Assembly (NCBI GenBank): GCA_951406725.2
Contig: OX597828.1
Span: 12,214,001-12,278,000 of the forward strand
Origin: Octopus vulgaris
Taxonomy: Eukaryota
Reading direction: 5' to 3'
Length of the DNA stretch: 64,000 bases
The position numbers were made by a program, and so were the translations under genes. This document shows positions 1,938 to 49,536 of the stretch, piece after piece. A model generated the notes under the pieces. It ran no database searches. It was not told where the DNA came from and worked only from the letters and a program-made list of their open reading frames with translations. Each line of letters begins with the position of its first letter. Position 1 is the stretch's first letter.

Positions 1938-2045
1938 AAATAAGAAAATGGAGAAATACATCCAAATCAATTATCAACTACCGGATAATACCTAATCACA
2001 TAATTTATTAAACCACTACATATGAACATTAATGTCAAACATAAA

Positions 2046-2318
2046 AATAGTATGAAACAACGGCTAAACTATCATAGATATACTTTTAAAAATAAAAATA
2101 GGATGAATTCTATGGAGTTAAGTACGTATATTTGGAAACTCAAGAGTAAGAACATAGATTTTAAATTAAATTGGGAAATACTAACTTCTGCACCTGTATA
2201 CAATAGTAGAAATAAAAAATGCTCTTTGTGTATCAATGAAATTTTCTTCATCATCAAAGCTGGCCTACCCATTATTAATAATATTAACGAGCGGAATAAT
2301 TTTGCCTTCATAAATTAG
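2046..2318 (+). pseudogene. C-terminal part of a Penelope-type GIY-YIG endonuclease (5'-truncated)
   Basis: MKQRLNYHRYTF...ELSTYIWKLK...WEIL...YNSRNKKCSLCINE matches the R-x3-H, ELS.YIW.LK and CxLC..E pattern of PLE endonucleases. Confidence 0.75.
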
Positions 2319-2773
2319 CGTATACTTTCTCTAGATTTAAATAGCACCTAGTTTTTCTACCAGTAATTTTTTAACATTCCTCTATGTAGGATAGTGCTAT
2401 TGGTCATTGTAATTTATAATTTATTATTTTGTATCTCCATATATATGTTCTATATTGATTATTATTATTTTTGTTCCGGCTTGAAACATATATTGAAATA
2501 TGCATGTATTTTGATATATACGTGATATTCTGATCTTCATGGTGTTTTCCACGGGTGTCGGGCGTATATGCGTATCATATCTTAGGGCGCTGGTTTGGGA
2601 TTTTGTTATACTACAAATATGTAACAAGTGTGGGTCTAAATTTAGTATACGTTGTTTATTTTGGATGAGCATATAAGCGTTTCCATGTATTTTTTCCATG
2701 TATTTGTTTGGCAGTCTCTTATATATTAAGTTACCTTTGTACTCATCTTAATTTGTATTTTATTTTATTTATG

Positions 2774-2838
<65 letters not shown>

Positions 2839-4462: not shown

Positions 4463-4843
4463 GTAGTTTATAGTTATATTTATTTTTATTTATATTCTCT
4501 TATACATATTGTACTTATTGTATCATATTACTCCTTCATGTACACTGTTTTGTTCTATATTATTATGTTTGACCTTAATGTTCATATGTTGTGGTTTAAT
4601 AAATTATGTGATTAGGTATTATCCGGTAGTTGATAATTGATTTGGATGTATTTCTCCATTTTCTTATTTTGTATTACTAATTTGTGGTAAAACATTTTAC
4701 CTTTGCCCATATAATACAGTAAATGAATTAATTGCATCGCAATTCTTAACATTTATGTATTAACTTTGTTGGGTACTTCACTAGCAGTATATTGGATATA
4801 TGTTATCCCATAGAGGGTTGCATTTACAACCACTATCTCAATT

Positions 4844-4878
<35 letters not shown>

Positions 4879-9396: not shown

Positions 9397-12300
9397 ATGA
9401 CTGCATTTAACCTTGGGTGTTTGAATGTGCGTGGTCTGAGCTCGAAGTGGAAGCAAGCTTGTTTCCTTGACGACCTCAGATCACACAATATGCATGTATT
9501 GGTTGCTTGCTACAGAGACCAAGCTGGACAGTCTACAAGCCTTCTCGCCTCTCCTGAATGACTATGCGACAATCCTGTCACCAAGCCGGACCGGAGGGCG
9601 AGTGGGTGTAGCAGTAATGGTTCGAAAAGGCTTGGCTCTGCAGACAAGTACAGTCTATGTAGACCCAGAAGGTGGGCTGGTCGTCCTTGATGTGACATAC
9701 AGCATTAAGGCCTTCAGGTCGATCGGGATCTATGCACCTTGTGCTAGAGGATTTCAAACTGATTTTTATCGACGCCCAGAGAACTCTTTCGTGCCGTCGA
9801 AGACATTAGTGGTGTTAGGTGACTATAACGCTACCGTTGACGCACGCATCGATAGCGTTGGCTCGATCTATAGGAAAGTAAACTCACGTCTCGTAGATCT
9901 GCTCAAGCGTTTTAACCTGGCAGATCGTTACAGACTTGACCATCCGAACGTCTCAGAGTGGACTTGGATGAGTGGCGACGGAAGGTTCAAGTCCTATTTA
10001 GATAGGATAGTGATAAGAACTGGAGATAAGTCTAGTTTTAGCTGTCCACAGCTTGTCCAAGTAGCTTCCATTTACCATAGAATGGCTAAGTGTAGACTGG
10101 ACATAGATAGTACAGTAAAAATAGAATCCAGCTACTTGAAGCTGAACAAGTCTATTTTGACTTGCGAGGCACGCAGTAGCCGGATTAAGGAATTAGTACA
10201 GAGGGCGCTAACCAGCGCGGTGGTTAATAACCGATGGTGGTTCGCCCTCAAGAGATCTATTCGTTTTGAGTCTATTAGGTTTAGATGTCAGCTAAGACTA
10301 GATAAGGCCAGAATAGAAGGGCAACTAGTTAAGGACCTACAGGAGGTGTTGAGGTTGGGCTCTGCATCTCACATTTTGGCAGCGAGAATGGCCTTGGACT
10401 GTCACCTCAAAGCTAAACATGAGAGGTGCAGAGTTCGGGCTAAAGTGCACGCAGAGGACCGTGAGGGAATTAATGTTGCCGGATGGGCCCGTACGGTAGA
10501 AACCCAGCGTGGCAATGATGCCACAATTAGGTCTCTCGTGGATGAAATGGGTGTTCGGTCGAAAGACGGGACGAGATGTGTGAGGCGATTCACAAGCACT
10601 TTTCCGAGTTATTTGGGAATGGCGGGGCACTGGATCATGGCGAGGCTCTTAGGGACTTCCTGTCTGGTGGCCCGCGCCTCTCGGCACGAGAGGCTAAGTG
10701 CTGTGAAGCGCCAATCACGGCCGAGAATGTGAATAAAGTACTGGGCGAATGTCCCAGGGAGAAGTCGCCGGGTCTCGATGTGCCTTACGAATTTTTGTAT
10801 GCCAGACTTGTTCGGGGACCTGCTGGACAGCATCTACACCAATTGGCAGCAGAATGGGAGAATTCCCAAGTCTGCGAGCCGAGGGGTGGTGACGTCGATC
10901 AGGAAGAATCTGAAGGACGAAATAGGGAACTTCAGGCTCATAACTCTGCTGAACACAGAGTTAAAGATTTTGGCCAAGGTGCTAGCGAAAAGGTTGGCGC
11001 GGGTCGTCGACAAACTTGTCGGGGAAGCGCAAACGTGCGCTATCCCGGGCAGGACGATCTACGACAATCTCCACCTTATACGCTACTGCATAGAGAGGGT
11101 GGGGAAGCTTTCTGTCGCGGGGGGGGGACACCGGTACATGTAGACCAATCTAAGGCATTCGATAGGGTCGACCATCGGTACTTGGCGGCGGTCTTCGAGA
11201 AGGCTGGCCTGGGACCGACCTTCCGCGGTTGGATTGCTGCGTTGTACAGCGACATCGAATCCGTCGTAAAAGTCAATGGTTTCATTTCGAAGCCATTCAG
11301 GATCGAGCGCTCTGTGCGTCAGGGGTATCCTCTGTCCCCGCTTTTGTATGTACTGGCTCTCGAGCCATTACTGCGGAAGTTGGAGACACTAGGGGGCGCA
11401 CATATGATCTATGGTGTGGAAGGGAAGCTACAGCTGTCAGTGGTGGAAGATGCTATCAAAATCTACGAGCGGTGGCAGGAGCAAAGATTAACAAGGACAA
11501 GTCAGTTGGTTTGCAGCTCGGCACCTGGAGGGGCAAGCCGATGCCGTCCAATAACGGAAGGTACTGTTAAGCTGCTTCGGGCCAGGCCTCCAGATAGAGA
11601 CAAACTGGAATCGGGTGGCCAGCAAGGTGACTGCTCTAACCCAGACCTGGTCTGGGCGGGCGTTATACTTGCTAGGAAAGGCGGGGGTGGTGCAGCTGTC
11701 CATAGCATCGGTTATACCTACCGTCCGACCGTGGTGCCTTGCCCCGACTTGTGGCTGAACAAGTTGGAGAGAATCCTTTTCCGCTTTTTGTGGAAGGAAG
11801 GAAAGCCACTCGTGAAGCGCTCTGTCTGCTGCCAGAAACCGCTAAAGGGTGGGCTTGGGATGCCTTGGCTGAGGATACGAAAGTTCGCGTTAAGGTTGAG
11901 GCACCTCTGGCTTTACCTGGATGGAGAGCAGGTGTGGTCATCGCATGTTCGGTTCTACCTTCCGCAATTAACGTCCTTAACGGACATTGGTAATTGGATC
12001 AAGCAGAGACCTAGGCTGGGGGACTGGCAATTGGAATGCCGCCAGGCACTTCAGCTACTCTACCGGGCGGACCATGCCGGCAATAGGAGTTCCACTGCGG
12101 ATTTCTATAGTGGGTTAGTGGAGGTAAAGTCCGAAGACGCCTTGGGGGAGACCCTGGGCTACGATGAAAATCAGTTAATCGACCTGTTCCGGAGAACTAT
12201 CGGCCCGAGGTATCTGGACAATTACCGGAAATCCCTGAATTGGCAGTACTTCCGTGCGGCATTACCTGTTCGTGATAAACTGTCATGGCCGGAAGTGCCG

Positions 12301-12679
12301 TCTCGCCGACATGTCCGCGGTGCGGGCAGGACAGGGAAACCGTCTGGCACGCATTTGTGGAATATCTGGAATTAAGGAGACTGATAGTTTTCGCAGAGCA
12401 ACAGTTGCCATCGATGAGAAGAGTACAGCTATCAGCTGAATCTATCATCGATATTGTGCCACCTCTTTCCCTTAACAGGGATTGAAGGCTTGCTTTTTCT
12501 GCGTAGTAGCCATACTGAAAGAAACAGTATGGAAGACGCGTGTGAGAGGCATAGTGTCGGGTACCTTTCTATCCGGCCAGGGGTTGGTTAGCTTTTGTAG
12601 TTACCACCTCAGTAGTAAGATCAGGCTGGAGAAGATGGAGCCTGTGGCGAGGAAGCTGGGAGTGTTCAGCACCGGGTAA
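9397..12679 (+). pseudogene. LINE ORF2: AP endonuclease, reverse transcriptase and C-terminal Cys/His motif, with several frameshifts
   Basis: MTAFNLGCLNVRGL; LGDYNA; SYLDRI; FRLITLLNTELKILAK; DQSKAFDRV; VRQGYPLSPLLY; GGLGMP; CPRCGQDRETVWHAF, spread over shifting frames. Confidence 0.9.
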
Positions 12680-20445: not shown

Positions 20446-20822
20446 ATTGTGAGATCCAGTTGGCCTTGGGTATACTTTGATTTTGCTCTGCACTGTGTGT
20501 AAAATAATTCCTGCAATGGCTTTGCGAAACGATTCAACTAATTACAATTCATTCCCCGTTATTATAGATCTTGCATCTTGTTTCCTACCAAATTTCGGTC
20601 TCATATCCAATCAAAATGAAAAGCCAATAACTCAAGATTTTAAGGCACACATCAGAAATCAATATCTATTGTGTACAACATACATTAGAACATGTCAAAC
20701 ATTGCTACATAGAAAGATATCAAACTCTACTTGCATAATTACGGTTGGAAGATATCGAGTACTGCTTTTATGACTGACTTGCAAATGCATTGATATGGTT
20801 TACTATTTATTATAGGGTGTAA

Positions 20823-20953
20823 ACTCAGAGCCACCGGGTATTCTTCGCTACCACGCAAGTTACAAATTTGGTTGCCAATAATAACAATTATTCTCAAGAA
20901 GTTACCTATAATGTCAACTTACCTGAAGCGGCGTTGATATCCAGTTTCAAAAT
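20823..20953 (+). pseudogene. ITIH: ITIH-like gene, VIT-domain exon A
   Basis: FATTQVTNLVANNNNYSQEVTYNVNLPEAALISSFKM resembles the ITIH VIT motif (RFA..V.N..EV.F.V.LP..AFI.NF.M). Donor AT|GTATGT; 5' boundary uncertain. Confidence 0.75.
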
Positions 20954-21044
20954 GTATGTATTTTATACTGACGTTAAAACGAACTATAATCTTCGATTAC
21001 ATTATCGAATAATAACAATATATTTCTGCTTTCTTTATAAACAG

Positions 21045-21156
21045 GGTGATCGATGGTGTTGAATATCCGGGTGAAGTTAAAGAAAAGGAACAAGCTAGAA
21101 AGATGTACAGAAAAGCCAAACAGAAAGGTCAGATCGCAGGTCATGTTGCCAAATAA
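21045..21156 (+). pseudogene. ITIH: ITIH-like gene, VIT-domain exon B
   Basis: Acceptor AAACAG|, in phase with exon A. VIDGVEYPGEVKEKEQARKMYRKAKQKGQIAGHVAK* has an in-frame TAA just before the GT donor. Confidence 0.85.
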
Positions 21157-22462
21157 GTATCTTTTGTACGAAATTATGTTTTATCGGTCGAAATCAAAAC
21201 ATCTCCACCTTTAAGTTTGAAACAAAACACCAAACCCAATCCGAGCAATCAGTTCATTACGTCTGCTTTCCCAGATTCTGAGTGGTACTTCACCATCGGG
21301 AAGCTAGTTTGTCGCAGAATTGCTGATTATCGCCAGCTGCGTGGACTGGAGCAACAATAAACAAAGTGTTTTGCTCAGGAATCACTACAACCAGCTTGGT
21401 CCAGGAATCGAAGCCATAATCTTACGTCATGAGAACAATATACATAATCACTAAACCAAGCACCTCTACAATTCAGGTTTAAGAAATAATGAATATAGTT
21501 CCTTTTGTTTATGACATGAATTTTAAAGGCGGCGATCTGGTAGGATCGCTGACGACTCAGACAAAATCCTTCGTATTTCTCTTGCCTCCTTATAGTCTAG
21601 ATTCAAATTCTGCCGAGACTGATTTTGCAGTTCATCCTTAAGGATTCAATCATGTAAGTACCAGTTGAACACTTAGCTTCACCCTTAATTTTGCTGGTCT
21701 TGTGCTAAATTTTCCAATATTTGTTGATTTCGGTTTGCATGGATTTGTTCCGTCACTTTACATTGTGTGTTTAACTCCATTCGAAGTCAGCTTTACCTTC
21801 GGGTTCGACAAAATAAAGTACCAGTGAAATACTTTGATTGATGTTATCGACTGTACCCTTCTAAAAATTGCTATCTTTGTGCCTAAATTATAAGCAATTG
21901 TTAAATTATTATTTCTCGGTGTTTGTATGGATAGAATAGTTGCAGCGTCGGGCACAATAACCTGCAGTATTAGTTCCGGCACTTTGCGTTTTGAGTCCAA
22001 ATCGTGGTGAGGTTAACTTAAACTTTCAAACTTCCAGCTCGAAAATATAGGGTACCGGTGAAGTATTGAGTTCCATTTAATTAACAAACTACCCTCTTTC
22101 CCTAAATTTTCTGATATTGTGACTGCATAAGAAATGCTCGAGTTAACAGTCTCTTTTCGTCTATTACATTTACTTTCACATAATTGTTACATAAATCGAA
22201 TATAAATATACCACAGTAGTAGATTTATTGTATCGGTCTCTTTTGACAAACCACTAAGTTACAGTGCCAAAAAAATTCCATTATAGGTGGTCAAGTGATG
22301 AGAGACTACTCCAGACACAAAGATGCAGAAGCACACACATTAAAATAAGTACGAGGTTTAAACAGATAAATCGGTGGGTTAGGCTTATGCGACTAGAACT
22401 CTCAAAGCCGTGCTCCAGAATGGCCGCTAGCATATGACTGAAACAAGTAAAAGCAAAGAATA

Positions 22463-22535
<73 letters not shown>

Positions 22536-22824
22536 CTCTCTCTATATATATATATGTGTGTGTGTGTGTATATATATACACGCACACACACGCACACACA
22601 CACACATGCACGTACACACATGACTAGATTCCACACGTTTTCCATTAATCAATTTCACAAGGCATAAGTCATCTTGGAGAAAACTGGAGAAGACACTTGA
22701 CAAAAGCAGTGAGGTCAGCTTGAATGTGAAACCACGTAGCAGCGAAATGATCTTCTGTAACCACTGCTGATCAGTAAATTAATCAGTAAACTGATCAATA
22801 CATTGATCAGTAAATCTATCTATC

Positions 22825-22935
22825 CATCCGCTCAGTCGAAGTCGACTCTCGGTCACTCGTTGGATCAGTGTCCTCCAGTTAGTTCTATCCTGGGCCTTTT
22901 CTTTCAGATTGACTATGTTCATTCTGGTATACTCT
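22825..22935 (-). mobile_element. 3' tip of an RTE/BovB-like LINE
   Basis: LKEKAQDRTNWRTLIQRVTESRLRLSG matches the RTE C-terminal DR..W...V..SR.RL motif. Confidence 0.65.
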
Positions 22936-22999
22936 AAATAATACCTTGTTTTAATATTCAATTCAAAATACTATATTTTATGCAGTATTTAATATTCAG

Positions 23000-23256
23000 A
23001 CCACGAGCTACAAACAAATTCAAAGTTAATATCAACGTTGCGGCAATGAAAAATGTGAAGTTTGAACTTCGGTACCAGGAGTTATTAAGAAGAAAATTTG
23101 GTTTGTGTCAACATTCTCTCTACGTGATTCCCCATCAACCTGTTCAAGATCTAAAAATACAAGTCTATATAGAAGAATCTAAAGAAATTCGTACTCGGCG
23201 AGTACCACCTTTCTGCTTCATTGACACAACATATTTTGAAGAAATACCAGCCTCGT
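23000..23256 (+). pseudogene. ITIH: ITIH-like gene, exon C
   Basis: Acceptor TTCAG|. PRATNKFKVNINVAAMKNVKFELRYQELLRRKFG...PHQPVQDLKIQVYIEE matches the ITIH pattern F.V.VNVAA...V.FEL.Y.ELL.R. Confidence 0.85.
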
Positions 23257-23809
23257 GTGAATATTATGTCACGAATGTTCTGTGTGGAAAAAGGGATTCA
23301 TTTTTGATAAATATTTTCAGTAAATGCATACTTAAGTTTATCAAAGTATTCTATATTTGATGGAAATTTTTTAATATAAATATTATCACAAGCATTCTAT
23401 ATATAAAATATATTTCTAAGAATCTTTTTCAAACTAGAAAGATCTACAAAGATACTATAGGCTCATTGGCTTTTCGTTGTGTATATATGTATATATGTCT
23501 CAGAATTGACCGGATCAAAACGTACCTGACCTGATCTTCTGTGAGCCATATAAAGCAGTCTAATCTTTTCAGAGTTAATCTGTCGGTGATTAAACTGGTT
23601 ATGTGAGAAATAGACGGATATTTAAGCTGTCCAAAGAGACTATGCGATTGCATCATAGAGAGCATATACCAGCCATTCAAAAAGAAAAATGTTAATTTCA
23701 CTTAAACATTTATCATTTAGAGTTAAAATTTTCGTCGCATAAACAACGACTTGGTCTTTGACTTGATATCACATATCTAGTTCTTTTGTGAGGTTGTTAA
23801 TTGCTGAAG

Positions 23810-23984
23810 CACTACCTTAAAGGGTTTTAGTCATGAAATCTACCCCCAGGACTTATTCTTTTTAAGCCTAGTAATTATTCCATCGGTCTCTTTTGCCGAA
23901 TCGCTAGGTTACGGGGATCTTGATGCACCAGCATCGGTTGTCAAGCGATGGTGGGGGGACAAACACAGACACATACACACACAC

Positions 23985-24060
<76 letters not shown>

Positions 24061-24215
24061 GTTTCATTCAGTTTCCGTCTACCAAATCCACTCACAAGAC
24101 TGGTCGGCCCAAGGCGATAGTAGAAGATATTTGCCTCAGGTGCCACGCAGTGGGACTGAATCTGGAACCATGTGGTTGGGAAGCAAGCTCCTTACCACAT
24201 AGCCACGCCTGCGCC
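23810..24215 (-). mobile_element. SINE family A
   Basis: Reverse complement of head, body and tail, with central (TA)n. Confidence 0.85.
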
Positions 24216-24511
24216 TATATATAGGATTATGAATTGTTACAATTGAATAACTGCTTTAGTGTGTTTCGTGTATTTTGGGGCGGGTAGTATGAGTTTTCCA
24301 TACTGCAATCGTTTTACTTCCAGCATACACTCTCAGATCAAACAACTTGCCTGGCGATTGCACCTCCGATAATTATTACACCTGTGTACAATGTCGAATT
24401 TACTCAACAAAACGTCAATACTCTCCAATAAACCTACAAATAGAGCAGGGCCTCATTAAGACTTTTGAATCGAACATTCCTGATTCTCTTGGCATCTCTG
24501 CAACTGATTGT

Positions 24512-24954
24512 GGATCTTTTCGGTTTGAACGGCAGTTTTTTAAAATAATTTCCACGTAACTAAACACTTTTAAACTCCGTATACTGGTAGAATGTGTTTA
24601 TAAAACATCTTTTTCTCTTGGCTTTATTGAAAAAATTCTATAGTTTCTAAGATATTTGTTGTTGTTTTTTCTTCAATTTTTGCAATTTCAACCAATCAGT
24701 GACGTCTATTGAGTTAAAAAGCATTCTGTGCCGTATGAATATGTCCCTCGTTTAAGAAACAGATTGGGTTTATTTACATTTCTGAAGAAAAAAAATGCCC
24801 TTCCCCCACCCCTAACCCTAACCCCAACTAACCCTAACTAACCTTAACCCTAAAACAGATTGAAATGCAATAGATCGATACTAGGGTCATAATTATGGGG
24901 AACAATTTCATATGACACCACTAGAAAAAAGTGCCGTTCAAACCGAAAAGATCC
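24512..24954. mobile_element. GG-terminated MITE, copy 3
   Basis: TIRs; perfect TSD CTGATTGT on both sides. Confidence 0.92.
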
Positions 24955-25495
24955 CTGATTGTCTCTCTCGAACGCACTAAACTTGCTTCTTGCTGACCCA
25001 GAGATACACAAGCGGTAGTAACCCCTTGATAATTGTGAGGATGTCCTAAGGTGGCATAAAATACTACTGGCAAAGATTATCATTGTCTCCTGTTAGAAAC
25101 ATCGTTAGAAACAACAGATCCGTGTCGTCTCTGTTAGTCCAACCCAGTTACCGGAAATTGGAAAAAAAAATCAACTATGATATTCTAATTCGTATGGGTT
25201 ATCAACTATGATAGTATGATAGCGGACATCAGCTGTAATAAACTATTTTCATGGCCTGAAGGAAATTGAACCATTATCTGAATAGCGTCACAAAACCGTA
25301 ACGAAATTGCGATGCTCGAGAATCCAGTGTGGGGGACACAAACGTTTGCTTAAATAAGGTTATAGATATTTAGAGTGACATAAGTAAGCAGCGTCAAGCA
25401 TATTAGGAACACACGTAAAAAAGTCTACAGGTCAAAAGAGGCATTTCTGAATTCATGACCGCAAACCTGAAAGACTTGTGTGTGTATGTTTGTGT

Positions 25496-25541
<46 letters not shown>

Positions 25542-26865
25542 GCATGTGCGTGTGTGTGTGTGTGTGTGTGTTTGTGTGTGTGTGTGCCTGCTTGTGTGCG
25601 TGTGTGAATGTGTGTGTATGCCTGATGGTGCTTGTGCGTGTGCTTGCACGTCGTAGCTGTCCAGGTCACAGGAAAATATTTTTTCTACAAATCGGTGTGA
25701 AGTTAGCAGATAATTCGAATCTGACCGAGACACCGAAAAATCTGCTGCCGATCAATATTATAGTATAATATAGAAGTCATTTCTTGACATGTTATTGTAA
25801 TTAGTGAAGTTTTAATTAATTTTTCTGTAAATCTTACAATGAATAGATCTAAAGTAAAAACTCTAGAGAAGTGATAGTTCAGACAATACTGAACAGCTTT
25901 AGAAAAATTAGATGGAGGAGAATTATTGATGTGGAACCAACGAATAAATGGGTTGAGTAATTCCAGGATTCATTAATTCCAACCAACCGCAGATATAAAC
26001 AATATGTTTGTAGAACCAGTGATTAGCTAATGGAAGAATCCCGCTGTTGTTGCCTAACAAGTTAGTCTTGATCGAGCGGAGATATTATCAAAGGGATTTC
26101 AGATTTTAATGTCCAGATATCCAGACAGTCAGATGTAACTTTGACCTTATCTGCAGAGAACCTGGGAGTGTATTACCTTAAGCATACTTCAGATACTATA
26201 GCACTTGGTGTGAGTTGGTGGGATTTTTGTAGCTATTTCTAGCATCTCTTGTGACCACGTAGAGGTTTCTTTGATGTAGAAGTTACCACATTAATCGTAG
26301 TTGTAGGCGCTTTGGTCACAAACAATATTGATATATTTCTGAAGTTGTGGCATTACACTTCACAACTCTCCGTCGCTCTTTCGCAATATGCTGATATAGC
26401 TTGTAAACCATGTACAACACACTCCTCAGCACCCGTTTGTTACAATACTGGGGAACATGAAAGAGTGATGTCCATATGTCAAACAGAAATGTAAATTAAG
26501 TGATATTATTTGATTCTATATTATTTCCCGATTCGATATTATTTCCTGATAAATGTATGTCAATTTATTTTATTAAAAATTACTAGAATTCAAATTATTT
26601 TCAAATCAGCCTAGAAAAAGACGAGAAGGGCAGAGTGGAAACCAAGCATCAAAATGATATACTTGCATCAATTAACTCCACTAAAGTTAAACAACATTTG
26701 TCTTATTAGTCTGTTAGTCTAATCGTTGTTGACGATGTTGCAGTTGTTGTTTCGCTAGGGTTAATCCTTGATCAAGCAAACCTATGATAAACACATCCCA
26801 GCCATGCCACTCCCCTCTTTACTTTTGTCACAGAGTTTATCTGGGACTATATCATATCCAATGTG

Positions 26866-26988
26866 ACCATCCTCTCTTAAGAAGGCAGGGTATCATTACG
26901 AGAGGTAACCGTCCTCTCCTAAGATGGCAGGGTGTTATTACGAGAGGTAACCATCCTCTCAAGAGGACAGGGTGTTATTACGAGAGGT
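26866..26988. repeat. ~40-bp minisatellite, three copies
   Basis: ACCATCCTCTC..AAGA.GGCAGGGTGTTATTACGAGAGGT repeated. Confidence 0.8.
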
Positions 26989-27259
26989 TCCACTACTATT
27001 ATAATATTGACCATATATTATCAGTGCAGATACCCAGAAAATAAACACCAAACAAAGATTAGAGATCAAAGCGTTCACAATGTATTGAATATAATACAAT
27101 ATAATAAAATTATTCATTTCTGAAGGAGAATTTGTTCGAGCAAAATGTCTGTGTTTTACACCTGCATCTATGAACATTCATAATCTTCTTACACATTTAC
27201 ATATTTAATTGTTTATAGAATGTAACATATGTATCTTAGTAAATGAGATTTTCAATTTT

Positions 27260-28700
27260 GTCAGAATTTGGTTTACAGCAAATTTAATGTTTCAGCTATT
27301 CCATGAGTTGCAACAACGTGACTATGAAAGTTTCGAAATCTAATAATCTTGCAGCTAATTTTGTGTATACTTGTTATATGGGCTTTATTGGAAGCTGAAG
27401 TTTTTCGGATTTTAGCATTTGTTCTATATTTGTTTGGTGGATATTTTGAGGAGAGATATAACTCCAATGGATGAAGGTGGTTGTAGCAACAAACTATATT
27501 CCTTGCACCTTCAAGTGACCTTTTGTTTGCAATATTTTTGTTCAAAAGTGTGATTGATCTGTGAATATGGTTTATGTACACACTGTTATGATTCAAGGTG
27601 CAATGTTTTGCGTCCGTTGTAGTGTAGTCGGCGAACTGTTGTGGGGAGGATGTTGGCTCCTGATAGGGGTACCATAATCAATGATAGATTTAATGTACTA
27701 CTTGTACATTTTTGCCGCCTTCATCTGAAGGTTCAAGACATTAACTGACAGCTCCGTGAATGTTTTTCCATCGTTTATTTTTCCTTTACCATTTTCTGTA
27801 TTGTGAGTGTTATGGTAAGATGTTACACAACTCCCAATATTTGTTTCCTCTGTTTATGTTATATGCGTATATTGTGGAGTGTTATGACTGCTTATATTTA
27901 TTGTTTTCTGGTGTCGTGTAAGCAACGAGACCGTAGATTTGGCAGATGCTACTTTTAAGTTTATTGTGGTGGTTACACATTTCTATATGATTTAAATGGA
28001 GCCGGAGTTCTTGCACAACAGTGTTTAGAGAGTAATGTGAGGATGTGTGCGTGTAATGTCATCTCGGTATCAGACAACTTATATGATTTGGAAAATGTGC
28101 AAAAGTAGTGTTGTATAGGACGGTTCTCTATGAAATTCCATTCCGGAAATTACAAGTTTTGGAAATGCTTGTTCTTATATACAGTCTTGGCAGCCTGACA
28201 AATAATTTTCTAGCCGGTGCTTTGCGTTGATACAAAAAGTAAGGTTTAGTATTTTTACATGTGTGGATAGCAAGTAATGGAATGAAAAACTTTGTTGATG
28301 TTCATGTTAGTTAAACTGATACGTGTGAAGATGGATTTCTGTTTGCACTGTAGAAAACATCTTGTATCTTCAATTAAGTTTCTAACGGAATGGCCTAAAT
28401 CATTTCTATATTTGAAGCAAGAAATGCTTGAGATGCGAGTGATTTACCTTACTAAAAATTTTGAGTTTATGCGTGCATAAGAGGGAGATTGTTGAAGGTG
28501 ATAGCTTTGTATTGCAAATGTATTTTATGTAGACCTGTGACGTTAGGAAGGGAGATAAACGTGATTCCAGATTACATATGTAAATGTTACATGGAATTTT
28601 TGAGGAGATACAGTAAACTTAATAAGATCCCATATAGATTTTAGGATTTGTTTTGTACATATTTGTAAATTCTGCCATTCACCAATGATGTTAAGATGTA
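27260..28700 (-). mobile_element. Highly decayed LINE reverse transcriptase remnant
   Basis: The minus strand gives INKVFHSI, LENYLSG, FRNGIS*RTVL and RDDIT in RT motif order (cf. SKAFDSV, NYLSGR, GVPQG, YADDI). Confidence 0.5.
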
Positions 28701-29129
28701 CGCAGAAAAGTAAAGTTTTGTCCGATTCTTTCTTTCTTTCCTTTTGAAGACTATGGCCTAAAATTTGAAGATGATTTGGATGAAATTTCTAGCGACTTCA
28801 TAGAGGGTATTTTTCCCTTAAACTAGTATTCACCATAGAAATTCCTTTCGGTTCATTATCTGTTTGGGTTTATCACCCTACCTCGCTATTTTATATCGTT
28901 ACTTAAAACATTGAGACTCAAAACACTACTGACAATTCTAATAGAATAAAGAAATTTTAATGAATTAACAATAAAGCCAACATTCTCCTCAGAAATATCA
29001 TAACTCATAGGGTCTCCTTAATCAATATAAATTGTCCTTCGGTATCTATCTCTTTGGGAACCATTGTTTTCGTCCTCACAACATTACCAAATTATGATTT
29101 TGACTCATGCATTTCTGTCTTAATTACAT

Positions 29130-29474
29130 GTTGATAACGATACGCTAACCAATAATCAGTTCCACAGATATTTCAACGGTATAGAAACGGTAACAGCTGG
29201 AAAACTGACGGATAAGGACGCTTCGAGAATTACATGGAATATTGTTGGCAGCACAAGTTCTGGCGATGTTGATATTGAAGAAACAACTGAAGCGCTCCAA
29301 TTGTCCGATGAAGGCATAAGAGAAAGCTTGTTATCTGATGAAGACGTAAAAAGCATTCCAGAGAAACTGTGGGCATATCTGACAATCAAACAGATTCTAA
29401 ATCAAATGACTGCCAGTGACAACCAAACGGAGAAAGATGAGTTGAAGAATCGTGCGATTGAACTGTCCTTAAAG
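29130..29474 (+). pseudogene. ITIH: ITIH-like gene, exon downstream of the VWA domain
   Basis: LTNNQFHRYFNGIETVTAGKL...EKLWAYLTIKQIL...ELKNRAIELSLK|GTAAGA matches the ITIH G.E..VAG.L and ERLWAYLTI..LL...LSLK motifs. No acceptor at the 5' edge of the similarity. Confidence 0.85.
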
Positions 29475-30266
29475 GTAAGACTGGAAACATTACTTACGAT
29501 CTCTTTGTTCAAGAAAGGAATATATTTCAAGAGGTTTATGTCTCTCCCAAGCTTGCCAATTGAGCAATGGATATTAATTGTCATCGAAAGTATAATCGAA
29601 ATAGTGCCCAACGTTCAATTTTACTTCATATGCAATATTGATTAAATTTCAATTTAAATTAATGATACTTTTGTCAAATTGGGTGAACGTTTATACAAGA
29701 TAAGCGGGATGCTGTAACATTAATGCCTACTCTAAAGGCATTAGTGACATAAAAGAATGACAGTAGCATCCTCCGAAAAATGGAGATGGCATCACAGCCT
29801 GGTGGTAGCTTACAATTTATTCTATATATTTGCATGCACACACGTGCGCCTAAGTGAATATGAATGTTCATCATCACTGCGCATTCTCAGTTCCCCCATT
29901 TTCGTTGTGAATGGACGGAGGTGATATGCTTATTGATTTTTGACGTTTGGTATGGAGGACGAAACAATATTTTCTCATTAACCACGAAACTGCAACCGTC
30001 AATGCGACTAGTGTCCTTCCACAAATGGCACATCCTGTGAATCACTTTTGAGCTCGGTGCATATGTTGTTGCTCATTCTTCAAGATTTTTTCTCTGCATT
30101 TCTGGATGGAAATACCTTTCGACATTTTATAAATGGAAGGCACTCTACAAGTGTAATTGCAATAGAAGGAATTACATGGCTACCAATTATCATTATCGTA
30201 ACAAACCCCAAGGAAATAACAATGTTCTATGTTCTAGCACAAAATCCGCTTTTAAGTGGGGATGAA

Positions 30267-38343: not shown

Positions 38344-38742
38344 AGTGATATATATATATATATAAAGATAGTCGTTTTTTTCAATTTCAAAGAATGCTTT
38401 ATCGATCGCATTCTCACCTGGAATCGATATTTGTAATGTTTTCAAGACTTATACACGCCCTGATATCGTCGGTATCTACACATCAAATTTGACCTGTTCA
38501 CTGACAGCACAGAATTTTGACAGTGAACAGGTCACGGACTCAAAGCGACGAAAATATTTTGACAAATCAAATTTAAAGGAAGTGAATCTAACAGATTTTA
38601 AGTGCTTCTTAAATGGCTTATAAGCATCTTCCGCGCTGCAATTGTTTATGTATATATATATAATTTGGAAGAAATTGGCTTGTAGAAACTCGTGCATTTG
38701 TATCCATATATATATGCAGGTATGTATTTATATACATATATT

Positions 38743-38811
<69 letters not shown>

Positions 38812-38899
38812 TCATATATATATGTATATATATATATATACATATATACATATATATATATATATAAATACATATATATATATATATATAATATATATA

Positions 38900-39550
<651 letters not shown>

Positions 39551-39711
39551 TAATTATGAATTTTCTGGTTGATTCCGTAATGGAATCGGCGGCTTATATT
39601 TATTTGCTACCGATAAATTTGGCGCGAGTGCGATGATTTGAAAATTTTAGGTCAGATATTGCCGAGGCAGGGACGGAAATGCCTCGTGAAAATATCTGTT
39701 CCGTTCTGGCT

Positions 39712-39818
39712 ATTTCTTACTGAGGAATCTAAGGGCCTATGGAAGATTGGCTTGATTTAATTTAATCAGGTTAGTTTACCATTAAACAGTAGATGAAACG
39801 GTGCATCGTATAAGAAAT
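39712..39818 (+). ncRNA. Type I hammerhead ribozyme, unit 1 (predicted cut after 39810)
   Basis: Stem I ATTTCTTA/TAAGAAAT; core CTGAGGA; stem II ATCTA/TAGAT; GAAA; stem III ACGGT-GC-ATCGT; GTA triplet. Confidence 0.88.
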
Positions 39819-40202
39819 TACAGGGTAAATGTTTTTTTAATTTTCTCCTGGTTTACGGAATTAATGTTATTTTGCGGTTAAAGCTTTGGCTGTTATTTCT
39901 AGTGGGTGAATGGCCTATTATGGCCGTTCCTTGATTGTGATGTTGAACTTATAAATGGTCTATGACTATTTAATTTTTTCCCACTAGGCCGCTGGTGGCA
40001 AAAAAATTCTACAAAATTTTTTTTTGCCACCCTATATTGATTAATTATGAATTTTCTGGTTGATTCCGTAATGGAATCGGCGGCTTATATTTATTTGCTG
40101 CCGATAAATTTGGCGCGAGTGCGATGATTTGAAAATTTTAGGTCAGATATTGCCGAGGCAGGGACGGAAATGCCTCGTGAAAATATCTGTTCCGTTCTGG
40201 CT

Positions 40203-40309
40203 ATTTCTTACTGAGGAATCTAAGGGCCTATGGAAGATTGGCTTGATTTAATTTAATCAGGTTAGTTTACCATTAAACAGTAGATGAAACGGTGCATCGT
40301 ATAAGAAAT
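40203..40309 (+). ncRNA. Type I hammerhead ribozyme, unit 2 (predicted cut after 40301)
   Basis: Identical motif to unit 1. Confidence 0.88.
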
Positions 40310-40692
40310 TACAGGGTAAATGTTTTTTTAATTTTCTCCTGGTTTACGGAATTAATGTTATTTTGCGGTTAAAGCTTTGGCTGTTATTTCTAGTGGGTGA
40401 ATGGCCTATTATGGCCGTTCCTTGATTGTGATGTTGAACTTATAAATGGTCTATGACTATTTAATTTTTTCCCACTAGGCCGCTGGTGGCAAAAAATTCT
40501 ACAAAATATTTTTTTGCCACCCTATATTGATTAATTATGAATTTTCTGGTTGATTCCGTAATGGAATCGGCGGCTTATATTTATTTGCTGCCGATAAATT
40601 TGGCGCGAGTGCGATGATTTGAAAATTTTAGGTCAGATATTGCCGAGGCAGGGACGGAAATGCCTCGTGAAAATATCTGTTCCGTTCTGGCT

Positions 40693-40799
40693 ATTTCTTA
40701 CTGAGGAATCTAAGGGCCTATGGAAGATTGGCTTGATTTAATTTAATCAGGTTAGTTTACCATTAAACAGTAGATGAAACGGTGCATCGTATAAGAAAT
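40693..40799 (+). ncRNA. Type I hammerhead ribozyme, unit 3 (predicted cut after 40791)
   Basis: Identical motif to unit 1. Confidence 0.88.
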
Positions 40800-41184
40800 T
40801 ACAGGGTAAATGTTTTTTTAATTTTCTCCTGGTTTACGGAATTAATGTTATTTTGCGGTTAAAGCTTTGGCTGTTATTTCTAGTGGGTGAATGGCCTATT
40901 ATGGCCGTTCCTTGATTGTGATGTTGAACTTATAAATGGTCTATGACTATTTAATTTTTTCCCACTAGGCCGCTGGTGGCAAAAAAATTCTACAAAATTT
41001 TTTTTTTGCCACCCTATATTGATTAATTATGAATTTTCTGGTTGATTCCGTAATGGAATCGGCGGCTTATATTTATTTGCTGCCGATAAATTTGGCGCGA
41101 GTGCGATGATTTGAAAATTTTAGGTCAGATATTGCCGAGGCAGGGACGGAAATGCCTCGTGAAAATATCTGTTCCGTTCTGGCT

Positions 41185-41291
41185 ATTTCTTACTGAGGAA
41201 TCTAAGGGCCTATGGAAGATTGGCTTGATTTAATTTAATCAGGTTAGTTTACCATTAAACAGTAGATGAAACGGTGCATCGTATAAGAAAT
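41185..41291 (+). ncRNA. Type I hammerhead ribozyme, unit 4 (predicted cut after 41283)
   Basis: Identical motif to unit 1. Confidence 0.88.
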
Positions 41292-41516
41292 TACAGGGTA
41301 AATGTTTTTTTAATTTTCTCCTGGTTTACGGAATTAATGTTATTTTGCGGTTAAAGCTTTGGCTGTTATTTCTAGTGGGTGAATGGCCTATTATGGCCGT
41401 TCCTTGATTGTGATGTTGAACTTATAAATGGTCTATGACTATTTAATTTTTTCCCACTAGGCCGCTGGTGGCAAAAAAAATTCTACAAAATTTTTTTTTT
41501 TGCCACCCTATATTGA

Positions 41517-41585
<69 letters not shown>

Positions 41586-42864
41586 ATATACAATATATAT
41601 AATATATATAATATATAATTTATAGGAATATATGCATATACATACATATATACATACATATGTGCATCCATACCTACATACATACGGAAACATGCATTTG
41701 CTCAAGTCATGGTTCTGAATTACAAAACAGTCATGCTTCGGGTCTGTCTTCGAAATTATCATTTTATCATCTTTTAGAGAAATCGTTATTGTTTTAACTT
41801 AGTTTCCATTTTACAAAACGGTAGCCATATTTTTGTTTAAAATTTGAATATTTCAACTTGAATAATTCTAATGTTTAAATTTTCACCTCATGACTGCTAT
41901 AACTGTTTAATTATTATTTTTGTTTTCTTGTGAAATTTATATTAGAGAGACTAATGTACTTCTTCCAATTTGTGTATCAAGAATAACAATTTGGCCAATG
42001 TTTTATTCATTAGATCTGATTTATCAAGTTTTTACTAAATTATATTTATTTTACAAGAAGCATCCAAAAAATCATTATTCAGTCTATCATAATCAGTAGT
42101 ACTCGAGCATTAGATTATGGTATCATAGCGTAAATAAAACCGAAATCAACTTCCGTTTATCCCTATCTTGGTATGCTTCGTTACTCCAGCTCATATTCAA
42201 GCTTATGTCTAAAAGACCTATTTATCAAAGACCTATTTATCAGAGATTAACAATTTAATCATAGGAAATATGTTCTTTTTTTTAATTTTCATATGAGTAC
42301 ATACAGATACATACAATCACAAATACATACTGAAATTCATAATATAACAAGGTTATGAAACGGCTGTAGTCATATGGAAGTAATGGCAAAATCTAACACC
42401 TGGCCTTCGCCTTTCACACCTCCTGGCTTAATACGTTAAATACATACATACATACATACATACATGCATGCATACATACGTACGTACATACATACATACA
42501 TACAAACATACGTACGTACGTACATACATACATACATACATACATGCATGCATGCATGCATACATACATACATACATACATACATACATACATACATACA
42601 TACATACATACATACATGCATACAAACATACATACATACATACATACATACATACATACTACTAAGAGCTTCACCAGATGAATTGCATGGTAATATTGGT
42701 TCTTGTCAGATAAAGAGCTATATAATTGTGTTTATAAACGAGAGATAGAATATGATGATTTAGGAAAGTAAATTGGATATAGGACATATGTATATATATA
42801 TATATACATATATATACATACAAGCACACATACAAACACACATATATATATGTATATTTCCTTT

Positions 42865-49463: not shown

Positions 49464-49536
49464 TCCTCGGTAGTATAGTGGTAAGTATCCCCCGCCTGTC
49501 ACGCGGGAGACCGGGGTTCGATTCCCCACCGGGGTG
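49464..49536 (+). tRNA. tRNA-Asp(GTC): tRNA-Asp(GTC), possibly a pseudogene
   Basis: TCCTCGGTAGTATAGTGGTAAGTATCCCCCGCCTGTCACGCGGGAGACCGGGGTTCGATTCCCCACCGGGGTG. It has an extra C before the anticodon stem and mismatches at 1:72 and in the T stem. TTTT follows at ~49551. Confidence 0.85.

What the first reader, a model, noticed from the sequence alone, without database searches (positions are those of the whole stretch)
39551..41524. Retrozyme-like array: four ~491-bp non-coding units, each with an intact type I hammerhead ribozyme
Seen: near-identical units with no ORF. Each has one hammerhead: an 8-bp stem I, CUGAGGA, a 5-bp stem II with a large insert, GAAA, a near-palindromic stem III and a GUA site. 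A read-through transcript would self-cleave after 39810, 40301, 40791 and 41283, giving 491-, 490- and 492-nt monomers. Known: non-LTR retrozymes in animals are tandem type I hammerhead repeats that yield circular RNAs and are linked to Penelope-like elements. Inference: this is a young, rather large retrozyme family, and I am not aware of a description in cephalopods.
Basis: partly seen in the sequence, partly recalled or inferred. Interest (0 to 1): 0.92.

Follow-up and report, generated by a model that had tools for sequence, protein, structure and literature searches.

The report
Two-armed hammerhead retrozyme riding Penelope elements
This is one of over a thousand copies of a protein-free 490-base octopus repeat with a predicted self-cutting RNA motif; it is a new member of a known class, but its back-to-back arms ending at two fixed points, and one copy fused to a Penelope-like retrotransposon, show how such RNAs are likely pasted into the genome.

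Summary
Observation confirmed, but incomplete. Four 490-492-bp units each hold a type I hammerhead at the stated sites (0 of 30 shuffles). The family is genome-wide (1,640 exact ribozyme half-sites). Insertions carry the Penelope-like element (PLE) footprint: two 5'-truncated arms head to head, one ending at site A and one at site B, about 105 nt upstream (83 of 89; no A+A or B+B). Arms of one insertion share a haplotype (0.5% versus 2.8% mismatch). Ribozyme core bases are invariant while the free positions N7 and N17 vary. 5' ends pile up just after the predicted cut (28 of 130 arms), yet most arms run through it. Autonomous Hydra-clade PLEs here follow the same end rule (16 of 16), and one insertion joins a retrozyme A arm to a Hydra B arm. 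Verdict: a new member of the animal non-LTR retrozymes, likely copied in trans by Hydra-clade PLEs. Cleavage and RNA circles are untested. No cephalopod retrozyme turned up in six paper searches. This scan has already noted such families on other DNA of this genome.

The parts
38706..39040 (.). (TA)n target microsatellite, left side
   Evidence: TRF; junction read
39039..39550 (-).
39161..39267 (-). Type I hammerhead of the inverted arm, predicted cut at 39169
39548..39551 (.). Head-to-head junction of the two 5'-truncated arms, with a few bases of overlap
39549..41524 (+). 'A' arm: four tandem units (starts 39551, 40042, 40532, 41024), 99-100% identical, 3' end at site A
39712..39818 (+). Hammerhead 1, predicted cut after 39810
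40203..40309 (+). Hammerhead 2, predicted cut after 40301
40693..40799 (+). Hammerhead 3, predicted cut after 40791
41185..41291 (+). Hammerhead 4, predicted cut after 41283
41415..41524 (+). PLE-type 'tail' between site B (41414) and site A: about 105 nt in the reference unit, present at this end only; includes a predicted hairpin at 41467-41507
   Evidence: hairpin from fold of unit 2
41522..41661 (.). (TA)n target microsatellite, right side
   Evidence: TRF

Best explanation
The locus is one two-armed insertion in (TA)n of a non-coding 490-nt repeat with a predicted self-cleaving hammerhead, likely written by the RT-endonuclease of a Hydra-clade Penelope-like element that would prime both cut DNA ends at two fixed sites of the repeat's RNA. 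SHOWN: repeat and motif; over 1,000 dispersed copies; (TA)n target; variable 5' ends and two fixed 3' ends, one of each per two-armed insertion; shared haplotype of the arms; the same end rule in Hydra PLEs; one retrozyme-Hydra chimera. INFERRED: (1) read-through or internal transcription gives multimers; (2) the hammerhead cuts them and part of the monomers is circularised by a host ligase, as shown for coral, mussel and axolotl (PMC7229834); (3) a PLE protein dimer cuts both strands of (TA)n and starts one cDNA at A and one at B, usually on the same RNA or on RNA from the same source copy; (4) on a cut linear RNA copying stops near the cut, while on a circle (or an uncut multimer) it runs on and gives tandem units; (5) the two cDNAs are joined head to head by microhomology. 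Odds by step: PLE-type mobilisation 0.93; Hydra-clade helper 0.7; in vivo cleavage 0.7; a circle as the main source of multi-unit arms 0.55.
For: End rule: 83 of 89 head-to-head insertions are A+B, 6 have one odd end, none is A+A or B+B. B-anchored set: 31 A+B, 3 odd, 0 B+B. A-anchored set: 22 A+B, 2 odd, 0 A+A (loci). This matches the PLE tail, which lies between two RT start sites in vitro, with both strands cut and extended (PMC11167929), and is often present at one end only (PMC8557442). Arms that do not overlap at all (L126, L149, L154) need two priming events. Arm haplotypes: 0.49% mismatch within insertions versus 2.84% between, 41 loci; 17 rare variants fixed in both arms, 10 of them in 3 or more units. 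In arms with 3 or more units: 159 fixed variants, 84 singletons, 15 shared by a subset, which fits units born together. No insertion with a nested inversion, as copying a parent's junction would give, among the 116 classified. Two arms start within 10 nt of the same unit position in 21 of 83 (null mean 4.4, max 13 in 10,000). Ribozyme constraint: 11 core bases invariant in 68-72 insertions; N7 is G41/T18/C9/A1 and N17 is A56/C16; stems I and II each carry a compensatory change in one insertion. 5' ends at unit 261-290, just 3' of the cut: 28 of 130 arms, 6.4 versus 1.7 stops per kb. Helper: Hydra-type families show A+B in 16 of 16 two-armed loci with both ends visible, with tails of 67-174 nt, against about 40 and about 30 nt in two non-Hydra families. 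L035 is (TA)n, retrozyme A arm, direct head-to-head join, 204 nt of a young Hydra family (99% identical) ending at that family's B site, (TA)n, with no other piece of that family in the 8-kb locus.
Against: No cleavage, circle or transcript was shown. The catalytic fold is not the predicted ground state. The unit has no significant DNA similarity to any PLE family tested, so no parent element was found. The Hydra link rests on geometry and on 1 chimera in 114 loci. Five variants are shared by only some units of both arms, two of them in the terminal unit of each (L048, L065), as a linear multimer would give. 15 subset variants show some duplication or conversion after insertion, or mixed parents. 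The stop cluster lies 1-30 nt past the cut, with only 1 end within 259-263. It falls in the most AT-rich of 15 windows tested, involves 18 of 75 loci, and was not visible in the first sample (0 of 122 ends at 255-268). First-pass versus second-pass stops (23 of 101 vs 2 of 31) differ only at p=0.06. The own arm was closest or tied in just 22 of 41 loci. In the anole PLE, hammerhead cleavage was not needed for insertion.
Confidence: 0.72

Rival explanations
1. Same PLE two-site priming, but the template is an uncut linear read-through multimer; circles play no part in mobility.
For: Hammerhead mutants still insert in vitro and unprocessed RNA is the main substrate in the anole PLE. Private variants in the terminal unit of both arms in L048 and L065. 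Autonomous Hydra elements of 2.6 and 3.6 kb also form tandems. The catalytic fold is not the ground state.
Against: Fixed rare variants in 3 or more units (10) outnumber partially shared ones (5). Median arm is 258 nt and only 16 of 130 exceed 1 kb, so daughters should often copy a parent's inversion junction or flank; no nested inversion was classified, though a few junctions hold short displaced pieces (L039, L062, L066, L266).
Confidence: 0.3
2. A PLE inserts about one unit; the tandems then grow locally by unequal crossover, as proposed in the 2026 preprint (satellite model), and gene conversion makes the arms alike.
For: Adjacent units share variants in L032, L036, L037, L039, L054. The preprint argues for local amplification.
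Against: A starting arm must already exceed one unit for crossover, and 40 of 130 arms exceed 500 nt. Singletons (84) far outnumber subset variants (15). Arrays keep exact A or B ends and a single truncated 5' unit.
Confidence: 0.12
3. Single priming, then fold-back of the cDNA (self-priming) makes the inverted arm, and endonuclease resolution removes the tail from one end.
For: 21 of 83 junctions are near-perfect palindromes. Self-priming was proposed in PMC3846280 and endonuclease resolution in PMC8557442.
Against: Non-overlapping arms (L126, L149, L154), either arm can be the longer one, and the L035 chimera has arms from two different elements. It may still explain the palindromic subset.
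Confidence: 0.07
4. The tandem or the inversion is an assembly artefact.
For: Units are 99-100% identical and flanked by long (TA)n.
Against: The same architecture recurs in 89 insertions on many contigs, with locus-specific variants. The B-end/(TA)n junction and the unit-to-unit junction occur in contigs of public sequencing runs (one of these runs may be the assembly's own source). The exact unit count at this locus was not checked with long reads.
Confidence: 0.02

Closest known systems
Animal non-LTR retrozymes (Cervera & de la Pena 2020, PMC7229834: passages and parts 2-4 of 6 read, supplement unreadable; Li, Clavereau & Pollet 2026, 10.64898/2026.07.22.740005: parts 1-3 of 5 read, supplements not seen)
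   Same: Non-coding, AT-rich tandem units with one type I hammerhead each, thousands of copies, PLEs in the same genome; the mussel family is the nearest reported mollusc case (350-390 bp).
   Different: 490-nt unit; 53-nt stem II insert that Rfam misses; dispersed two-armed insertions with a strict A/B end rule and (TA)n target. The main text of PMC7229834 has no occurrence of 'inverted', 'microsatellite' or 'cephalopod'. Those papers infer PLE mobilisation from co-occurrence and pLTR similarity; here it is read from insertion ends and a chimera, and no pLTR similarity was found.
Endonuclease-bearing Penelope-like elements and their 'tail' (PMC11167929: parts 1-2 of 4 read; PMC3846280 and PMC4209133: passages)
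   Same: 5' truncation, inverted head-to-head copy, tail at one end, AT-rich target, hammerhead with palindromic helix III upstream of the two ends.
   Different: No ORF. Tail about 105 nt instead of 30-40. In the passages read the tail is 'optional' or 'often at one end'; a one-of-each pairing was not quantified.
Hydra clade of PLEs (Craig et al. 2021, PMC8557442: passages, section 11, supplement rows; lists Hydra-1_Obim, 2,507 bp, (TA)n)
   Same: Young Hydra-type families in this genome share the (TA)n target, long tails (67-174 nt), the A+B rule and, in most families, a large stem II insert; one is fused to a retrozyme arm.
   Different: The retrozyme is not a detectable deletion derivative of any Hydra family sampled. 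Whether the 2,580-bp family equals Hydra-1_Obim was not tested.

Membership tests
Animal non-LTR retrozyme | Short tandem units, each with a type I hammerhead | tested here: met
Animal non-LTR retrozyme | No coding capacity | tested here: met
   longest stop-free stretch 47/43 aa; no ORF attached to any arm in 114 loci apart from the non-coding Hydra 3' piece in L035
Animal non-LTR retrozyme | GC below 50%; no LTR framing | tested here: met
   G+C 174 of 446 unmasked positions; ends abut (TA)n directly. PBS and PPT were not searched
Animal non-LTR retrozyme | Unit length in the reported range | tested here: met
   490 nt: above the 150-450 bp of PMC7229834, inside the 51-972 bp of the preprint
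Animal non-LTR retrozyme | Self-cleavage of the transcript | not testable with these tools
   indirect only: core conservation, stop cluster after the cut, fold cost
Animal non-LTR retrozyme | Accumulates as linear and circular monomer RNA | not testable with these tools
   only contigs were available; a circle junction cannot be told from a tandem junction
Rfam hammerhead families | Covariance-model match | tested here: not met
Autonomous EN+ PLE | ORF with RT and GIY-YIG endonuclease | tested here: not met
   so it works like PLE cargo but is not a PLE
PLE-type insertion footprint | 5' truncation with an inverted head-to-head copy | tested here: met
   89 of 116 insertions classified; 27 single-armed, a few of them with a second arm too short for the filter
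PLE-type insertion footprint | Tail at one end only, 30-40 bp | tested here: inconclusive
   one-ended tail met (83 of 89); length about 105 nt is outside the published range but inside that of Hydra-type families here
PLE-type insertion footprint | (TA)n or AT-rich target | tested here: met
   two of the three samples were anchored on a TA junction by design, the top-ranked sample was not
Hydra clade (candidate helper, L232 family) | RWK, DKT, CxCx5C linker, no CCHH, C-terminal EN, under 3 kb, (TA)n, hammerhead | tested here: met
   motifs read from alignment; period 2,580 bp and ends; hammerhead variant with a U4C core read by eye. No tree was built
Derivative of a PLE pLTR (preprint model) | Sequence similarity to the pLTR of an autonomous family | tested here: not met
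   no significant match to the families sampled; not all PLE families of the genome were sampled

The most novel reading that the evidence does not exclude
Penelope-type enzymes integrate by an obligatory asymmetric double priming: one subunit always starts at the distal site A and the other at the proximal site B, a role set by the enzyme complex (it holds even when the two arms come from different elements, as in L035). This retrozyme is a circular RNA that such a Hydra dimer copies round and round from both DNA ends, while ribozyme-cut linear molecules leave the short arms that stop at the cut.
Probability: 0.35. Interest if true: 0.8.

Novelty: new member of a known kind. Interest (0 to 1): 0.58.

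Why it matters
How PLEs make their tandem and inverted insertions with a one-sided tail is named as unresolved in PMC8557442 and PMC11167929, and PLE mobilisation of animal retrozymes through circles is a hypothesis in PMC7229834. This family offers over a thousand young insertions with a countable end rule, a short natural template with two mapped start sites, intact candidate helper proteins in the same genome and a chimera that names one. The in vitro assay of PMC11167929 could test all three points directly. It also extends retrozymes to cephalopods and shows that Rfam misses these long-insert hammerheads. The element class itself is known.

Tried and rejected
Rfam: no hammerhead hit. Expression: no RNA holder listed; the runs are guesses. 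Contigs of four RNA-guess runs cover the unit but cannot show ends, strand, level or circles; no silent-stretch control was laid. Helper search by DNA similarity: negative for the 781-aa GIY-YIG family, the L107 family and all Hydra-type families sampled; best local scores p=0.03-0.09 (L218, L227), not significant over 18 tests. A resemblance between the A end and the Hydra fragment at window 2004-2318 led to the clade but is not itself significant. End-to-end jumping between cut monomers as the source of all tandems: possible but unsupported. My first reading 'no 5' ends at the cut' was revised by the larger anchored sample. One search held duplicated short hits and was replaced. Intron location: the window holds only a partial ITIH paralog with its last matched exon at 29498, and no later exon was found, so a host read-through transcript is not shown. 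Promoter scans were uninformative (the polymerase III box consensus is recalled). No solved structure resembles the Hydra protein. Hydra adjacencies at L058, L273 and L275 are tail-to-tail across TA and are read as separate insertions.

Full report
Observation. The array and its four hammerheads are as described, and no such motif arose in 30 shuffles of the window. Unit coordinates below refer to window 40042-40531; the predicted cut is after position 260. Rfam does not detect the motif. The unit folds better than shuffles (z -5.9), but the catalytic fold costs 2.3-3.6 kcal/mol against the ensemble. The best hits of a nearby ITIH-like exon are Octopus proteins.

Family. The genome search gave 1,481 candidates, of which 40 were scored, with full-length units at 97-100% identity. 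Exact patterns count 1,640 ribozyme half-sites, 1,756 unit junctions, 408 ends of one B variant and 590 A ends on the forward strand alone (reverse hits were multiply counted). That implies roughly 1,200 or more insertions. Runs labelled as four organisms hold the unit, and contigs of two large runs show the B end joined to (TA)n.

Architecture. I parsed the window, 39 other top-ranked loci, 40 loci anchored on a B end and 35 anchored on an A end. Of 116 insertions classified, 89 are head to head and 27 single-armed. Of the 89, 83 have one arm ending at A (about 490-496) and one at B (about 388-396); 6 have one odd end, one of them an assembly gap; none is A+A or B+B. The anchored sets test this directly: 0 B+B in 34 and 0 A+A in 24. 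This is the PLE tail, which in vitro lies between two RT start sites and is often found at one end only, but here it is about 105 nt long.

Two primings, usually one haplotype. In L126, L149 and L154 the arms do not overlap, so neither is a copy of the other. Arms of one insertion differ by 0.49%, arms of different insertions by 2.84%; 17 rare variants are fixed in both arms. In 21 of 83 insertions both arms start within 10 nt of the same position (null mean 4.4), as expected if both cDNAs stop at the same place on one RNA, though fold-back could give this subset. Against a clean circle model: 5 variants are shared by only some units of both arms and 15 by subsets within an arm.

Ribozyme. Eleven core positions are invariant in 68-72 insertions, while N7 takes all four bases and N17 is A or C, never G. 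With 40 of 446 sites polymorphic, core invariance alone is not significant; variation at exactly the two tolerant positions is the stronger sign. In the anchored sets 28 of 130 arms stop at 261-290, 6.4 per kb against 1.7 elsewhere. This may record run-off from cut RNA with trimming, or a pause, or AT-rich microhomology. Of 101 arms that reach this zone, 78 pass it, so most templates were circular or uncut.

Helper. The genome holds young intact PLEs of several kinds. A 781-aa family has a tail of about 40 nt and the L107 family about 30 nt. Hydra-type families (motifs) have tails of 67-174 nt, mostly long-insert hammerheads, and A+B pairing in 16 of 16 two-armed loci with both ends visible (loci were picked for intact or paired ORF hits, not by end type). 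None shares significant DNA with the unit. Locus L035 joins a retrozyme A arm directly, without TA between, to 204 nt of the 2,580-bp Hydra family ending at its own B site. It is 1 of 114 loci. It is most simply one event, and it shows that the arms can come from two RNAs while keeping the A+B rule.

Mechanism. Best reading (0.72): a retrozyme RNA is copied in trans by a Hydra-clade PLE protein that primes both ends of a (TA)n break at sites A and B; cut linear RNA gives arms that stop near the cut, and circles likely give the tandems. The main rival is an uncut linear multimer as template (0.3). Local satellite growth, proposed in the 2026 preprint, may add units but fits poorly as the main source. 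Transcription, cleavage and circles are not shown here.

Comparison and novelty. It meets the sequence-level features of animal non-LTR retrozymes; the two RNA-level features could not be tested. It is not an autonomous PLE. Six full-text searches listed no cephalopod retrozyme and no counted end-pairing rule, judged from listings and the six papers opened. The supplement of PMC7229834 and those of the preprint were not seen and may list octopus repeats; subscription papers are not covered. Hydra PLEs are already known from Octopus bimaculoides. Earlier notes of this scan describe 485-495-nt and 360-nt families with twin arms, and the long/short rule in Hydra elements, on other DNA of this genome; I reached the end rule before reading them, and they are not independent support. 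Class: new member of a known kind; interest 0.58, carried by the testable mechanism and not by the element class.

Noticed in passing
L035:3495-4554 (G000:C2, about 55.666 Mb): Chimeric insertion: retrozyme A arm joined head to head to the 3' 204 nt of a young Hydra-type PLE ending at its B site, (TA)n on both sides.
   Followed up: yes
L031-L069 and L120-L159: Rare variants fixed across an insertion are rich in T>C on the ribozyme strand: 12 of 28 (array L147.0 left out) versus 17 of 165 singletons, Fisher p about 9e-5. Unexplained; RT wobble errors, an edited antisense step or wrong polarity in old subfamilies are possible.
   Followed up: partly
window 40260-40289 and 40301-40322: Single low-depth contigs of two RNA-guess runs (X6, X3) show clustered A>G changes (9 in 30 and 7 in 22 letters, counted by eye), including in the GAAA core: looks like ADAR hyper-editing of the sense strand. 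No matched DNA; weak.
   Followed up: partly
L210-L229, L230-L249, L180-L199: At least nine Hydra-type RT motif variants on one contig (1,667 hits genome-wide); several families are young with intact ORFs (717, 899, about 950 aa), full-length tandems and tails of 67-174 nt.
   Followed up: partly
L100-L119: Young PLE family with a 781-aa RT-GIY-YIG frame preceded by an overlapping upstream frame of up to 479 aa and a degenerate hammerhead-like motif near its 3' end; tail about 40 nt.
   Followed up: partly
L241:6000-7900: Another tandem repeat of 594-nt period with a long-insert hammerhead and an inverted copy; probably a further retrozyme family.
   Followed up: no
L147:1-4564: Divergent (91%) subfamily array of at least nine units with compensatory changes in hammerhead stems I and II.
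   Followed up: partly
window 20786-29498: Partial ITIH-like paralog (residues 7-199 and 464-587 matched; stops in one match) downstream of an apparently complete copy, in an ITIH gene cluster.
   Followed up: partly
window 2004-2800 and 4582-4847: Fragments of Hydra-type PLEs: an endonuclease 3' end between TA tracts, and an A-end piece.
   Followed up: partly
window 9440-12375: Broken LINE with AP-endonuclease and RT matches.
   Followed up: no
window 49464-49536: tRNA match above the Rfam gathering score.
   Followed up: no
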